From the NCBI GenBank assembly GCA_000165345.1, contig CM000434.1:864001-928000 (forward strand): a stretch of 64,000 nt of DNA. The letters run 5' to 3'. Positions 4,410-58,113 of this stretch are shown piece after piece. The notes beneath the pieces were generated by a model, which had not been told where the DNA came from, did no database searches, and was given only the letters and a program-made list of their open reading frames with translations. Every line of letters starts with the position of its first letter. The stretch's first letter is position 1. Both the position numbers and the translations under genes were made by a program.

Positions 4410-4560
4410 TTCCCGCCAAAATTCGTCAATTGCATGTAAGTCGTCCACAAAAATGCATGTAAATACCGGTTTATGAAAAAATGTGTATGACACGTGTATA
4501 TCAATTTTTTCAAAAAAAAATAGTGGGTATGACATCATAAATAGAAGCAGTTGCATGCGA
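4410..4560. promoter_or_regulatory. Divergent promoter between P5CR and the mucin, with the composite motif cluster
   Basis: E2F-like ttcccgccaaaatt at 4410..4423. TGCATG at 4430..4439 and 4451..4460. ataccggttt at 4463..4472. gacacgtgtat at 4488..4498. ttgcatgcga at 4551..4560. Confidence 0.4.
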
Positions 4561-4897
4561 AAGAAAAGTATTAAATTTTACATAAATTCGAGAGTTGTAT
4601 TATAATCATAATAAAAACAAAATAAAGATAGTAAATGTAAGGAAAGAATAAAAAGAAAGAATACAAAAAGAATATGATTAACAAAAAAAGTTAAAACTAA
4701 AGAATAAAGTTAAATATATTTGAGATTTACAGATATTTAATAACGTAATTATAAGTTAAATTGAAGATAGTATACATGGACATTAATAGGATTGAAATAA
4801 GATAGAAAAGTTAAAATACGAGAGAAAAAACTTAATATAAAGGGAACAAAAGCTAAGAGGCAATTAATATAGCAAAAGAAAAAGAAAATTCAATTAA

Positions 4898-7800
4898 TTG
4901 TTTGAAATGTTTACAGGGAGTGACTTGAAAAACTTAGTATTGAAAACTCTATTATTATTGCTACTGGAATACCTTATCATCAACTTTCCAGGAGTCTCAT
5001 CAATTGATGAAAAGGTTCAGGAAAGGAAAGATGATCCAGTAGCACATATGGACCCTGCCCCACCAATACTATTTAAGGAAATGAAAAGTCCAATTGTAGG
5101 AGTGGGTGATATTTGTTTTGGAAACAACTGTAACTATTACCAAGAAAGTAAAGAAAATAGTCCATCCAAAGACAGAGAAAGCTATCATTCAGTTGGTTCC
5201 AAAGTTACAAGGTATATATGTATATTATTATCAGAAAATACTTTTACTAGGGAAAAAGAGGCAGATTTGTTTTTTGAAAGATTAAATGAATATACAGAAA
5301 CTTCAGAATTGCCATTTTCATATGTTGAATTTTACGAGAAACTTGGAGTTTTTGTAATTGATGTTAGATCCAGTATTAAAGAGTATGAAGAACGCAGTAT
5401 ATTTCCCTTGGCTGAAGGTTTGAAACTTATCAAAAAGTTAGATATTTTAAACAAGGCTGACTGTACTAAAGATTCTCTTTTAAGTGAACAATCGGTATTT
5501 ACAAGTGGAAATGAAGATAAATCTACTGAGAATTACAGTAATAGCTATAAGTGGAATTGGAGCAGTATTCCTAATAATTTTGTAAATTTTAATCGAATCT
5601 TGAAATCCGAAGAGTCTCAAGGAAATATTACGAATAACAATCAAGGCACAGAATATTTAACAGATGAAGCAAAGCTATACAAAGAGTTGGATGGTTACTT
5701 TTTGAAAAAGTTCAATGAAGCATCTAATCTACTTAATAAACTAAATATGTTCTCTTCCCCATCCTCTTCATCATCAAATTTCAATAATCCTACTGTTTCA
5801 TCAACATCATTTTCCGGAGGGAGGCAATCTTCTCTTTGGAATGCACTCAACTTTTTATCCAGTTTCTCAAATAAGGAAGAAAAGTCTAGATCTACGCCAA
5901 TCCAGGAAATTGAAGATCCAATTTTTGGAAAAATGGACCCAACAGATGGTAATTCTAAATTAACAATATCTCCACTATACCTTCTTGGGATGAATCTCAA
6001 AGGAAAAAACATTACAGAGCTATCTCAAAAGTTCAAAAATCAAACATCTCCTATCGTTCCTGTAGATATGTCTAGAGAAGATATTAGCTTGGACAATGAT
6101 CTTGCAATGAATATAGCAACAGTAATCTTCAAAGGAATGAGTGATTCCGCTGCAAAGCTTCCACCTCCTTTTGGGAACCCTGCAGTCAAAAATGAGCAAA
6201 AGTTTCCAGAATATAATTACAAAAACCATATAAATTATCTTGAAACAAATGCAAATAATAACTATTATAATTCCCCATCAATCTCTAACTGGAGTTATAA
6301 ACCCATACCACAGGGTAACAATAATGTAATTGGTGGATATGAAAATGACCAAAGCCAACTCAATATTCAAAGTGATCACTTTAAAGGAGGAAGTTTTCAT
6401 CCAAGTTCAAGTAATAATGCTATCAATACAATTGATAATTCCATTATTGGATTTAATAGTGTTTCTCAAGTTAACTCAAATAGTAATTCTAATAAAGTAG
6501 GAGTTCATTCTCAATCTGGTTCTGGCTTAGCTCCAAATATTTTTGAATCAATAGATACATGGGGAAAACAGAGCTCAGCTTATCAATCAACTTCTTCTTC
6601 CGCCTCCCCTCCATCATATTATGCAACAAATGGTATTAAAACTATTAATCCAAATCAAGTGACTTCTAATGGAAAGAGTAATCCTGATTTAAAAGTACCA
6701 ACCATTAATTCTCCATCAACTTCAGAATGGATGAGAAAGACTATTTCAAAGCAAAATGAGGGTGGGATAAAGCAACCGTCATTTATTAACAGTCAAAATA
6801 ATCAAACAGAAATTAATAAATTTGCAAATAATATGAACCAAAATACCCCCCCAATTGTTAATTCAAATGGTAATCACTTTAATTCTCCATTTTCACAGCT
6901 TTCAAAGTTTTCTAACAATCCATTCCATGGAAATTCTGCCGGAACAACATTTGTCAAAATGAATGGTAGTGTTTTTGATGATGATAATGATATCACTTCT
7001 TTCCATCCTGAAGGATTTATCAATAAACTTCCAGAACATGTACAAAAGAATATGACTCAATCTCAAAGAGACAAAATTAACTTAATAAATGCATTTATTG
7101 GTACTGGATTTGATACAATTCTTCAGATGAATAATATAGATTCTAGTTCAAGTTATGGTAATCAGAATAATGATTTCTTTAGAAGTTCTCCTCCAAAAAG
7201 AAGATTATTTGAGATTGACTCTTCAACAAGAGGAAACAAAATGGTGATTGATGAAAACATGAAAGACCCGAATTTAAGTGATCAATCAAATAAAGAATAT
7301 GAAATGTATGCCAAATTGCTGAGTAATATTGATACGAACCAAGGTCAAGATACTGCAATGGCCTATGTGACAGGATGTGATTGTGATAGATTTCCTGAAG
7401 GAGTTGCATGTCCCATGGTGCTTTCAGGAGAAGCGAATATTGAATGTATTGGGTATAAAGTTTGGAATAGTGCAAGAAAAGGTGCTCCATTGAGTGAGAT
7501 AGCTTCAGCAATAGATTCTGCAATTACTTCTAAAGCAAGAAATATTATTTTGCCTTTAAAGTTTGATACAAAGACAATTGAAGAAAATCGAGCAGCTCCA
7601 AGAATTTTGAGGCACATCATGAGAAGAACTTCAAGAGAGAATGGAATACTATTTGCCTTACCAACAGGAAATAATGGTAAGCAGGAGTTGGATGGAAGCT
7701 TAGACTTTCCTTGCGACGATTTGACAGGAATGTACGCTTTTTGTGTGGGTTCAATTAACAACAAAAATGGAATGCCTTCGAGTTTTTCCAATGTTCCTCA

Positions 7801-58003: not shown

Positions 58004-58004
58004 T

Positions 58005-58113
58005 TACATAAAAACGCCGGTATGTGCCAGTAAACTTGCAAGTTTTTACCAATATGAATGTTTGAATATTGCATGCGCCGGTATACATGCAAGCAAAAAA
58101 ATTTAATATAGAT
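58005..58113. promoter_or_regulatory. Composite motif cluster upstream of EFL1
   Basis: cgccggtatgtg at 58005..58016. attgcatgcgccggtatacatgcaagc at 58058..58084. gatgacgtgttcg at 58101..58113. Confidence 0.4.

What the first reader, a model, noticed from the sequence alone, without database searches (positions are those of the whole stretch)
4410..58113. Recurrent composite cis-element cluster (CCGGTA + TGCATGCA-like + ACGTG ± GGCGCCAAA) in at least eight intergenic regions
The same trio of short GC-containing words recurs within ~100 bp in otherwise ~80% AT spacers. The sites are 4451-4498, 15310-15396, 18650-18739, 23960-24019, 28790-28839, 45700-45740, 52472-52560 and 58005-58113, and there are no comparable clusters inside coding sequence. 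The words are ACCGGTA/ATACCGGTAT (often palindromic), (T)TGCATGC(A) and (G)ACGTG(T), frequently with a GGCGCC/GGCGGG E2F-like box nearby. TGCATGCA and GGCGCC-type words are known over-represented upstream motifs in Cryptosporidium (ApiAP2-type and E2F/DP-type sites). I do not recall the tight co-occurrence with CCGGTA and ACGTG as a fixed module being described. Several clusters sit in divergent promoters and could be shared bidirectional control elements.
Basis: partly seen in the sequence, partly recalled or inferred. Interest (0 to 1): 0.6.

Follow-up and report, generated by a model that had tools for sequence, protein, structure and literature searches.

The report
Female-stage promoter motif module in Cryptosporidium
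Short DNA words (ATACCGGTAT, TGCATGCA, ATGTGGAC, TTACGTG) cluster upstream of Cryptosporidium genes switched on in female gametes and are conserved across species, and the CCGGTA word is a strong motif absent from every motif list I could read and with no known binding protein.

Summary
All eight sites carry a CCGGTA-type box next to TGCATG. Six also carry ACGTG within 120 bp, and no such cluster lies in coding DNA. Each word is 3-40x over dinucleotide-shuffle expectation. The triple co-occurs at 7 sites against 0.37 expected. The E2F boxes are not specifically linked.

The window is C. parvum chromosome 6 (cgd6_3710-3980). Seven of the nine genes here that a published table lists as female-specific sit beside a module. 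In an independent published set of 64 macrogamont promoters, ATACCGG is the top-scoring 7-mer (17/64 promoters, 0.41 expected). There CCGGTA lies within 50 bp of TGCATG in 96% of cases.

The modules are conserved in place in chipmunk genotype I, C. ubiquitum, C. felis and C. canis, and partly in C. muris. Spacing differs between promoters, so this is a flexible cluster of binding sites, not a repeat or a fixed element.

TGCATGCA is a known ApiAP2 site. CCGGTA and the ACGT box appear in none of the motif lists I could read, though Bankier 2003 and Walzer 2024 were not readable.

Verdict: a genuine female-stage cis-regulatory module containing an apparently undescribed motif. Moderately interesting.

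The parts
4403..4558 (.). Module 1. It lies in the 588-bp divergent promoter of cgd6_3720 (P5C reductase, minus strand) and cgd6_3730 (2269-aa secreted protein, plus strand). Elements: CCCGCC, TGCATG x2, GTCCACA, ATACCGGTTT, ACACGTGT, TGCATGC.
   Evidence: The promoter sequence printed for cgd6_3730 in PMC11078545 file S6 matches window 4319-4906. Both genes are listed as female-specific, log2FC 7.3 and 9.25.
15278..15391 (.). Module 2, 175-250 bp upstream of cgd6_3750 (alpha-amylase-family enzyme, minus strand). Elements: CATGCA, ATACCGGCAT, TGCATGCA, TGACGTGT, ACACGTAT, ATGTGGAC.
   Evidence: The gene is listed as female-specific, log2FC 3.8. The module is conserved in chipmunk genotype I, C. 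ubiquitum and C. felis, and partly in C. muris.
18650..18739 (.). Module 3, 130 bp past the stop of the 805-aa gene and about 700 bp upstream of the 78-aa ORF/first exon at 19438. Elements: ATGTGGAC, ATACCGGTAT, TGCATGCA x2, ACGTG x2. The target transcript is unknown.
   Evidence: AATACCGGTATTT and TGCATG are invariant in four species including C. felis.
23882..24015 (.). Module 4, 220-350 bp upstream of hexokinase cgd6_3800 (plus strand). Elements: GTCCACAT, TTACGTAT, TGCATG, ATACCGGTAT, TGCATG, GGCGCC.
   Evidence: The gene is listed as female-specific, log2FC 1.6. The module is conserved in chipmunk genotype I and C. ubiquitum. The CCGG core is lost in C. felis.
28760..28866 (.). Module 5, in the divergent promoter of aspartyl protease cgd6_3820 (minus strand, ATG 28545) and small GTPase cgd6_3830 (plus strand, ATG near 29201). 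Elements: TGCATG, ACACCGGTACGTGG, CCACGTAA, GCCGCCAAA, plus a conserved TTGACTTTTCATG block.
   Evidence: Both genes are listed as female-specific, log2FC 4.2 and 2.2. All motif positions are identical in four species.
45688..45736 (.). Module 6, about 355 bp upstream of PH-domain gene cgd6_3910 (minus strand). Elements: GGCGGG, GTACCGGTTA, GGCGGG, CATGCATG. No ACGTG.
   Evidence: The gene is listed as female-specific, log2FC 2.5. CCGGTA, the GGCGGG boxes and TGCATG are kept in place in chipmunk genotype I; C. canis keeps the GGCGGG boxes and TGCATG but has no CCGGTA word there.
52473..52559 (.). Module 7, about 600 bp upstream of the 913-aa gene (ATG 51873, minus strand; cgd6_3930 by inference) and 490 bp past the stop of the 375-aa gene. 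Elements: ATGTGGACACCGGTAT, TGCATGCA, TTACGTGG, ACACGTAA. The target is not established.
   Evidence: The same words occur in the same order in C. canis (L011 7632-7715). They are partly kept in chipmunk genotype I.
58014..58120 (.). Module 8, starting 11 bp after the stop of the 961-aa gene and 250-350 bp upstream of the EFL1-like GTPase (58368, plus strand; cgd6_3960 by inference). Elements: CCGGTAT x2, TGCATGC, CATGCA, TGACGTGT.
   Evidence: Same order in C. canis (L011 12918-13023). Partly kept in chipmunk genotype I and C. ubiquitum. cgd6_3960 appears in the gene list induced by the differentiation inducer S-1255.

Best explanation
The clusters are heterotypic transcription-factor-binding modules that mark promoters of genes switched on in the female gamete (macrogamont) of Cryptosporidium.

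Each module combines four elements:
- The known ApiAP2 site TGCATG(CA).
- A (semi)palindromic box, consensus ATACCGGTAT, with CCGGTAT as the strict half.
- CATGTGGA(C/T)A.
- An ACGT-core box, T(T/G)ACGT(G/A), often present as an inverted pair.

The boxes lie within about 100 bp of one another, 150-800 bp upstream of the ATG. Spacing and orientation vary between promoters but are conserved between orthologous promoters. This is a flexible 'billboard' of sites read combinatorially.

Shown here: clustering beyond chance, conservation, and association with genes listed as female-specific.

Inferred:
- TGCATGCA is read by the female-specific AP2s cgd2_3490 and AP2-F (cgd4_1110). Their binding to this word is published protein-binding-microarray data.
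- TGTGGAC may be read by the G-box-binding female AP2 cgd8_810.
- The ACGT box may be read by a bZIP-type dimer.
- CCGGTA is read by a factor not yet identified. It supplies the specificity that distinguishes female promoters from the many other TGCATGCA-bearing promoters.

Where a module lies between divergent genes it drives both.
For: Chance and composition are excluded.
- All words are far above dinucleotide-shuffle expectation.
- CCGGTA ranks 2nd of 492 composition-matched 6-mers.
- The triple co-occurs at 7 sites against 0.37 expected, 0/5000 permutations.
- The clusters lie only in noncoding DNA.

Expression.
- The window is C. parvum chromosome 6.
- Nine genes here are listed as 'Female specific' in file S3 of PMC11078545: cgd6_3720, 3730, 3750, 3790, 3800, 3820, 3830, 3880 and 3910.
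- Seven of the nine have a CCGGTA+TGCATG module in the upstream spacer, against 4 of about 18 other genes. Fisher p = 0.009.

Independent genome-wide set: 64 macrogamont co-regulated promoters from file S6 of the same paper.
- CCGGTA is in 20/64 promoters (1.06 expected).
- ATACCGG is the top-scoring 7-mer, in 17/64 (0.41 expected).
- TGTGGAC is in 14/64 (0.38 expected).
- CCGGTA lies within 50 bp of TGCATG/GCATGC in 96% of cases, against 44% under the null.
- CCGGTA and TGTGGA co-occur, Fisher p = 7e-5.
- The TKACGT half-site occurs 24 times against 8.8 expected.
- Twenty of 24 CCGG tetramers sit in the CCGGTA context.

Conservation.
- The modules lie at the same spacers in chipmunk genotype I, C. 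ubiquitum, C. felis and C. canis, and partly in C. muris.
- Motif positions are identical in all aligned species at 66%, against 33% for other spacer positions. 0/2000 rotations reach this.
- CCGGTA is over-represented in noncoding DNA of five of the seven orthologous loci (0/300 shuffles), including the C. muris locus; one C. ubiquitum locus is weaker (9/300) and the GC-rich C. canis locus shows no excess.

Literature.
- Promoters alone confer female specificity, shown with a COWP1 reporter (PMC6877471).
- TGCATGYR is enriched in macrogamont promoters and is bound by cgd2_3490 (PMC11078545).
- A[T/A]G[T/A]GGA.A was noted upstream of class II COWP genes (PMC3734150).
Against: - Three modules (sites 3, 7 and 8) are not next to a gene listed as female-specific. 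The stored expression table is truncated, so absence from it is weak evidence either way.
- Two genes listed as female-specific here lack CCGGTA: GAPDH cgd6_3790 and the mitochondrial carrier cgd6_3880. The box is therefore neither necessary nor universal. Only about 31% of the 64 promoters have it, and those sequences were stored truncated to about 390 nt.
- I had no genome-wide set of non-female promoters, so specificity rests on this window alone (Fisher p = 0.009).
- An isolated, conserved CCCGGTAAT lies in the promoter of a gene listed as male-specific (cgd6_3860).
- No binding or reporter data exist for CCGGTA, the ACGT box or TGTGGAC.
- Several gene identifiers were inferred from product names and gene order. 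Only cgd6_3730 was checked by sequence.
Confidence: 0.72

Rival explanations
1. The words are general promoter or upstream elements of Cryptosporidium, like the ubiquitous E2F box, with no particular tie to the female stage. The link to female genes in this window is a sampling accident.
For: Three of the eight modules have no known female target. Isolated CCGGTA words occur at 11907, 11940 and 32990, the last in the promoter of a gene listed as male-specific. No genome-wide non-female control set was available.
Against: Seven of nine female genes have the module against 4 of about 18 others. CCGGTA density is about 1 per kb both in female promoters of the window and in the independent 64-promoter macrogamont set, against 0.23 per kb in the remaining spacers. 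ATACCGG is the top-scoring 7-mer of that independently chosen set. E2F-only promoters in the window lack the module.
Confidence: 0.13
2. Some clusters (sites 3, 7 and 8, and the block at 63584-63640) are promoters of unannotated or antisense long non-coding RNAs, not of the neighbouring mRNA genes. They sit just 3' of genes.
For: - Site 8 starts 11 bp after a stop codon and site 3 lies 130 bp after one.
- The block at 63584-63640 lies in a convergent spacer where no mRNA starts, and it is conserved.
- Published work reports that C. parvum antisense lncRNAs start near mRNA 3' ends and carry AP2_1 motifs upstream (PMC7840661).
Against: Module-to-ATG distances of 250-800 bp fall within the range seen for bona fide female promoters in the 64-gene set (positions combined with the promoter lengths). 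The lncRNA paper's supplementary tables hold none of the relevant gene identifiers. This reading is compatible with the main explanation, since it would be the same module with a different transcript.
Confidence: 0.1
3. The clusters are chance or compositional artefacts: GC-containing words piling up in GC-richer islands of AT-rich spacers.
For: The spacers are 21-32% G+C with local heterogeneity.
Against: Dinucleotide shuffles never reach the observed counts. Among 492 6-mers of the same composition the median count is 2, while CCGGTA has 15. There is positional conservation across species.
Confidence: 0.02
4. The clusters are copies of a dispersed repeat or decayed mobile element.
For: The same words recur at eight places.
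Against: The eight regions do not align (34% mean column identity; only the short words match, in different orders). Each is conserved at its own orthologous position in other species. Rfam and ARAGORN find only one tRNA elsewhere in the window.
Confidence: 0.01

Closest known systems
AP2_1 motif (BGCATGCAH / TGCATGYR) and the cgd2_3490 / AP2-F female regulon (Oberstaller 2013, 2014; Hasan 2024)
   Same: TGCATG(CA) is present in every cluster. It is over-represented upstream of macrogamont genes. One of the window's genes (cgd6_3730) is in the published 65-gene set.
   Different: The published work reports this single word. Here it is one of four co-occurring elements. TGCATGCA alone also occurs upstream of more than 1000 genes expressed at many stages, so it cannot by itself explain female specificity.
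Unknown motif A[T/A]G[T/A]GGA.A upstream of class II COWP genes (Oberstaller 2013, Fig. 7)
   Same: It matches ATGTGGAC(A) and is associated with late (72 h) oocyst-wall genes. The COWP8 promoter in the 64-gene set carries two copies plus ATACCGGTAT.
   Different: It was described for four or five COWP genes only, was not linked to CCGGTA or TGCATGCA, and has no assigned factor. It resembles the G-box TGTGGGG bound by the female AP2 cgd8_810, but that link is untested.
E2F/DP boxes (TTGGCGCC / TTTGGCGGGAA) of Cryptosporidium promoters
   Same: Present within 60 bp of four of the eight clusters. Strongly over-represented in the window's spacers.
   Different: No association with CCGGTA beyond chance. 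They mark a largely separate, broader promoter class.
ACGT-core bZIP sites (G-box/C-box/CRE-type TGACGT, TTACGT). Recalled from general knowledge, not tested.
   Same: ACGT core with a T(T/G) 5' flank, frequent dyads (TTACGTGG..ACACGTAA, TGACGTCA in cgd8_4300), and 2.7-fold enrichment of TKACGT.
   Different: No Cryptosporidium bZIP has been tied to it. The enrichment is the weakest of the four elements.
CCGG-core palindromes read by Grainyhead/CP2 (AACCGGTT) or Reb1-type Myb factors (TTACCCGG). Recalled from memory; a lead only.
   Same: Shared ACCGGT / TACC(C)GG core and dyad symmetry, suggesting a dimeric or tandem-domain reader.
   Different: Grainyhead/CP2 proteins are not known in Apicomplexa. 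None of the 18 C. parvum AP2 proteins has a microarray motif like it. Membership cannot be claimed.

Membership tests
ApiAP2 AP2_1 binding site (TGCATGCA) | Sequence matches BGCATGCAH / the TGCAT core | tested here: met
   TGCATG is in all eight clusters. GCATGC is in sites 1, 2, 3, 7 and 8, and lies near site 5.
ApiAP2 AP2_1 binding site (TGCATGCA) | Over-represented in upstream noncoding DNA | tested here: met
   33 observed against 5.8 expected in the window's spacers. GCATGCA is in 35/64 macrogamont promoters against 1.75 expected.
ApiAP2 AP2_1 binding site (TGCATGCA) | Bound by an AP2 domain | not testable with these tools
   Published microarray data for cgd2_3490, cgd4_1110 and others (PMC4117751, PMC12246861).
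E2F/DP box as a component of this module | Co-occurs with the other words more than chance | tested here: not met
   GGCGCC near 1/13 CCGGTA sites (1.1 expected) and GGCGGG near 2/13. The looser pattern GGCGSB is near 4/12 against 2.3-3.5 expected.
Cis-regulatory module of co-expressed genes | Heterotypic sites clustered beyond chance | tested here: met
Cis-regulatory module of co-expressed genes | Conserved at orthologous positions while flanks diverge | tested here: met
   66% against 33% of positions invariant, 0/2000 rotations. Alignments.
Cis-regulatory module of co-expressed genes | Associated with a co-expressed gene set | tested here: met
   7/9 female genes against 4/18 others in the window. 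Enrichment in 64 macrogamont promoters. The caveat is that there was no genome-wide negative set.
Cis-regulatory module of co-expressed genes | Necessary or sufficient for the expression pattern in a reporter | not testable with these tools
   Needs transgenic C. parvum reporters.
Fixed-grammar element (enhanceosome-like 'fixed module') | Constant order, spacing and orientation between copies | tested here: not met
   The CCGGTA-to-TGCATG distance is 10-63 bp on either side. CCGGTA and TACCGG occur 15 and 14 times. The order of elements differs among sites.
Dispersed repeat / mobile-element remnant | Copies alignable beyond the short words | tested here: not met
   34% mean column identity among the eight regions.
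bZIP-type ACGT-core element | ACGT core with a preferred T(T/G) flank, dyad symmetry | tested here: inconclusive
   TKACGT occurs 24 times against 8.8 expected, but total ACGT only 32 against 24.7. Inverted pairs are seen at sites 2, 5 and 7. The binding protein is untested.
Class II COWP unknown motif A[T/A]G[T/A]GGA.A | Sequence match and association with late/female genes | tested here: met
   ATGTGGAC at sites 2, 3 and 7 and GTCCACA(T) at sites 1 and 4. TGTGGAC is in 14/64 macrogamont promoters including COWP8.

The most novel reading that the evidence does not exclude
ATACCGGTAT is the recognition site of a not-yet-identified, probably non-AP2, regulator of female development. This would be the missing counterpart of the male determinant Myb-M. 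Together with CATGTGGAC and TKACGTG it would form the code that singles out female promoters among the many TGCATGCA-bearing promoters, across the whole genus. None of the 18 AP2 proteins has a matching microarray motif. Reviews up to October 2026 state that no female trigger is known.
Probability: 0.25. Interest if true: 0.75.

Novelty: new member of a known kind. Interest (0 to 1): 0.5.

Why it matters
How Cryptosporidium switches on the female programme is described as unknown in the most recent literature I could read. That programme covers oocyst wall, amylopectin stores and meiosis genes. Sex is obligatory for sustained infection and for transmission.

A conserved 10-bp palindrome that scores above the known AP2 site TGCATGCA in macrogamont promoters (though it occurs in fewer of them, 17 against 35 of 64), and has no known reader, offers three practical uses:
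- a concrete bait for finding the missing factor;
- a rule for predicting female genes from sequence;
- defined bases to mutate in reporter strains.

It also explains why TGCATGCA alone, which is found upstream of more than 1000 genes, is a poor predictor of stage.

Tried and rejected
- Rfam (gathering thresholds) and ARAGORN on the whole window found only tRNA-Pro at 3223-3294 and nothing at the clusters.
- Aligning the eight clusters as a repeat family showed no alignment beyond the words.
- E2F as a module member was rejected by permutation.
- Fixed spacing or orientation was rejected.
- Text searches for CCGG, CGGTA, ACGTG, CACGT and TGTGGA in Oberstaller 2013 and 2014, Xiao 2025, Li 2021 and Mullapudi 2007 gave no hits. 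Searches for Cryptosporidium+CCGGTA and ApiAP2+ACCGGT returned no motif paper; by their titles the hits are diagnostic/primer and unrelated papers, which I did not open.
- Bankier 2003 and Walzer 2024 are not held in the library, so I could not check whether either mentions the word.
- The lncRNA paper's supplements contain none of the gene identifiers I tried.
- Tandel 2019 and Tandel 2023 contain no motif analysis.
- I considered testing whether CCGGTA-bearing promoters in the 64-gene set respond more strongly to the differentiation drugs. I dropped it because the set is pre-selected and the sequences are truncated.
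Full report
**What the window is.** The window is AT-rich (about 30% G+C) and densely packed with long intron-poor ORFs. The hexokinase ORF at 24235-25791 is encoded identically on the 1.31-Mb records CP029785.1 and CP141123.1, which later evidence places on Cryptosporidium parvum chromosome 6. 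Pfam hits give a PUB-domain protein, P5C reductase, a PAN-domain 2269-aa protein, an alpha-amylase-family enzyme, GAPDH and hexokinase. They also give a NUDIX/CPSF5 protein, an aspartyl protease, L7Ae, an ISWI remodeller, a mitochondrial carrier, a PH-domain protein, an EFL1-like GTPase and a glutaredoxin.

Matching these products to names in published tables places the window at cgd6_3710 to cgd6_3980. Hexokinase is cgd6_3800 and GAPDH is cgd6_3790. The ISWI gene is cgd6_3860. The promoter sequence printed for cgd6_3730 matches window 4319-4906. The other identifiers follow from product names and gene order. Gene calls on the T2T assembly and in sister species refine three models:
- an intron-containing small GTPase at about 29201-30095;
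- a 913-aa gene with its ATG at 51873;
- a 375-aa gene at 53052-54284.

Every listed site contains the stated words. Counts in noncoding DNA against 1000 dinucleotide-preserving shuffles:

| Word | Observed | Shuffle mean |
|---|---|---|
| CCGGTA | 15 | 1.31 |
| TGCATG | 33 | 5.76 |
| ACGTG | 19 | 6.95 |
| GGCGCC | 10 | 0.26 |
| GGCGGG | 9 | 0.56 |

No shuffle reached any observed count. CCGGTA is ten times denser in noncoding than in coding DNA. It ranks second of 492 6-mers of the same base composition, behind only the E2F word TTGGCG.

Random relocation of sites within noncoding DNA gives these results within 100 bp of CCGGTA:
- TGCATG near 9/13 sites (2.6 expected);
- ACGTG near 7/13 sites (1.9 expected);
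- CCGGTA, TGCATG and ACGTG together at 7 sites against 0.37 expected, 0/5000 permutations.

An unbiased scan finds all three words within 120 bp at exactly six places, all noncoding. These are sites 1, 2, 3, 5, 7 and 8. Sites 4 and 6 have CCGGTA plus TGCATG only. The coding CCGGTA words have no partner words.

Two corrections follow. The E2F-type boxes are not preferentially near CCGGTA. A fourth word, (A)TGTGGAC, is part of the cluster: it lies near 5/13 CCGGTA sites against 0.7 expected, and all 6 copies lie near TGCATG.

**What it is not.** The eight regions do not align with one another (34% column identity, only the short words shared, in varying order). They are therefore not copies of a repeat. 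Rfam and ARAGORN find only a tRNA-Pro at 3223-3294.

**Conservation.** I recovered syntenic loci from five other Cryptosporidium species via hexokinase orthologues and orthologues of the 961-aa protein. They are chipmunk genotype I, C. ubiquitum, C. felis, C. canis and C. muris.
- The same words sit in the same spacers, usually in the same order, even where the neighbouring protein is only 46-56% identical.
- In the aspartyl-protease promoter, TTTGCATG..A.ACCGGTACGTGG..CCACGTAAT is invariant from C. parvum to C. felis and recognisable in C. muris.
- AATACCGGTATTT at site 3 is invariant in four species.
- Over eight aligned spacers, positions inside the four words are identical in all species at 66%, against 33% for other positions. 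The rotation null is 0.34 +/- 0.05 and 0/2000 rotations reach the observed value.
- CCGGTA is over-represented in noncoding DNA of the AT-rich sister-species loci and of the C. felis locus, including the deep-branching C. muris (6 against 0.38 expected); the excess is weaker in one C. ubiquitum locus (9/300 shuffles) and absent in the GC-rich C. canis locus.
- There is also turnover. C. parvum has lost the two CCGGTA boxes that chipmunk genotype I carries upstream of GAPDH; C. ubiquitum carries one.

**Which genes.** File S3 of Hasan et al. 2024 (PMC11078545) lists 'Female specific' and 'Asexual specific' genes with a log2 fold change. The paper says it compared its results with published flow-sorted female and asexual data. 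The genes of this window listed there:

| Gene | Product | Listed as | log2FC |
|---|---|---|---|
| cgd6_3720 | P5C reductase | female | 7.3 |
| cgd6_3730 | 2269-aa secreted protein | female | 9.25 |
| cgd6_3750 | alpha-amylase family | female | 3.8 |
| cgd6_3790 | GAPDH | female | 2.5 |
| cgd6_3800 | hexokinase | female | 1.6 |
| cgd6_3820 | aspartyl protease | female | 4.2 |
| cgd6_3830 | small GTPase | female | 2.2 |
| cgd6_3880 | mitochondrial carrier | female | 2.2 |
| cgd6_3910 | PH-domain protein | female | 2.5 |
| cgd6_3920 | TPR-like protein | asexual | -2.4 |
| cgd6_3940 | uncharacterised | asexual | -4.1 |

Seven of the nine female genes have a CCGGTA+TGCATG module in their upstream spacer, against 4 of about 18 other genes. 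Fisher p = 0.009. Sites 1 and 5 lie in divergent promoters whose two genes are both female-specific. Sites 3, 7 and 8 have no established female target, although cgd6_3960 (downstream of site 8) is in the list induced by the differentiation inducer S-1255.

**Independent genome-wide evidence.** File S6 of the same paper prints the promoters of 65 genes that are co-regulated by differentiation modulators. The library stores each sequence truncated to about 390 nt. I transcribed the 64 non-empty sequences (22,295 nt) and checked my copy against the tool's own word counts.
- Unbiased k-mer ranking against dinucleotide shuffles puts ATACCGG first among 7-mers by z-score: 17/64 promoters against 0.41 expected. 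GCATGCA comes next with 35/64 against 1.75, so it is present in more promoters.
- CCGGTA is in 20/64 (1.06 expected), TGTGGAC in 14/64 (0.38 expected) and CATGTGG in 17/64.
- Twenty of the 24 CCGG tetramers are in CCGGTA context, giving the consensus ATACCGGTAT with CCGGTAT as the strict half.
- CCGGTA is within 50 bp of TGCATG/GCATGC in 96% of cases (null 44%).
- CCGGTA co-occurs with TGTGGA in 13/20 promoters against 6/44 without it. Fisher p = 7e-5.
- It has no orientation bias and variable spacing, 10-63 bp on either side.
- The ACGT element is weaker. Total ACGT is barely enriched, but the half-site T(T/G)ACGT occurs 24 times against 8.8 expected, 0/500 shuffles.
- Site density is about 1 per kb both here and in the female promoters of the window.
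- Carriers include COWP8, the LCCL proteins CCP1 and CCP2, glycogen branching enzyme, PNO, UDP-glucose dehydrogenase and NEK5.
- One caveat: the cgd8_4290 and cgd8_4300 entries are the same DNA read in opposite directions.

**What is already known.**
- TGCATGCA (AP2_1) is a classic apicomplexan ApiAP2 site. It is over-represented upstream of more than 1000 C. parvum genes, is bound in microarrays by cgd2_3490, AP2-F and others, and was recently tied to macrogamont genes as TGCATG(T/C)(G/A).
- E2F boxes are the commonest promoter word in the genome.
- An 'unknown' motif A[T/A]G[T/A]GGA.A was noted upstream of class II COWP genes. It matches ATGTGGAC.
- Neither CCGGTA nor an ACGT-core box appears among the 25 motifs of Oberstaller 2013, in the 2025 review's motif and AP2 tables, in Mullapudi 2007, or in the ATAC-seq and lncRNA motif analyses.
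- No AP2 microarray motif resembles them.
- The latest texts say that what controls female development is largely unknown and that no female trigger has been identified.
- I could not read Bankier 2003 or Walzer 2024, so an earlier passing mention cannot be excluded.

**Most likely mechanism.** The clusters are flexible heterotypic binding-site modules, 150-800 bp upstream of start codons, that confer macrogamont-stage transcription.
- Shown here: non-random clustering, purifying selection on the words, and association with genes listed as female-specific.
- Known from the literature: a promoter alone gives female specificity (COWP1 reporter), and TGCATGCA is read by female-specific AP2 proteins.
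- Inferred: CCGGTA, TGTGGAC and the ACGT box are read by additional factors. These might be an unknown dimeric reader, possibly the G-box AP2 cgd8_810, and a bZIP-like factor, respectively. Their combination with AP2 sites would supply the stage specificity that TGCATGCA alone cannot.
- Some copies may drive non-coding or antisense transcripts (sites 3, 7 and 8, and the conserved block at 63584-63640 in a convergent spacer). This is untested.

**Caveats.**
- Specificity against non-female promoters rests on one 64-kb window.
- The expression table and the promoter sequences were stored truncated.
- Several gene identifiers are inferred.
- Nothing here measures binding or function.

**Verdict.** The finding is a new member of a known kind: a stage-specific promoter module. 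It contains an apparently undescribed, strongly supported motif. Interest is moderate.

Noticed in passing
window 63584-63640; also L009 18458-18484, L010 10594-10620, L011 18206-18238: A GTCCACAT + CATGCATGCATGCAT + GGCGGGA block sits in a convergent spacer between the 3' ends of the 157-aa gene and EF1-alpha, where no mRNA should start. It is conserved in three other species. It may be an lncRNA or antisense promoter.
   Followed up: partly
window 21985-22115 versus L004 7720-7850 and L005 7755-7870: The GAPDH (cgd6_3790) promoter of C. parvum has lost the two CCGGTA boxes found in chipmunk genotype I (CCGG changed to TCGA); C. ubiquitum has one. The block GGCGCCAA..TGCATGTCTCG.(A/T)TTCGAGTA is almost invariant (two variable positions) as far as C. 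felis. This shows motif turnover and reveals an extra conserved element.
   Followed up: partly
window 28760-28785: ACATGTAATTnTTGACTTTTCATG lies just upstream of module 5.
   Followed up: no
window 11897-11947: The palindrome AAAGGTACCCGGTACCTTT and a GCCGGTATAT box lie in a 1.5-kb ORF-free convergent spacer between cgd6_3730 and cgd6_3750. They have no TGCATG partner. This may mark an unannotated transcript.
   Followed up: partly
window 3223-3294 (minus strand): A tRNA-Pro (anticodon CGG) gene lies in the spacer between the PUB-domain gene and P5C reductase.
   Followed up: yes
window 32990; also L004 18826, L005 18854: An isolated, conserved CCCGGTAAT with E2F boxes lies in the divergent promoter of L7Ae and the ISWI remodeller cgd6_3860, which a review lists as male-specific. 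A CCGGTA word alone is therefore not a female mark.
   Followed up: partly
window 39876-40090: The promoter of the mitochondrial carrier cgd6_3880 (listed as female-specific) has GCATGC, ACGTG and GGCGG but no CCGGTA.
   Followed up: partly
window 18740-19437: About 700 bp of DNA with no plausible coding ORF (only AT-rich ORFs of at most 101 aa with non-ATG starts) lies between module 3 and the 78-aa ORF at 19438-19674. That ORF is annotated as a separate gene in chipmunk genotype I and as a first exon in C. ubiquitum.
   Followed up: partly
window 53015-53906 and 49000-50000: There are GC-rich, strongly skewed low-complexity coding stretches (His-rich and QC-repeat translations) in the 375-aa and 913-aa genes.
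   Followed up: no
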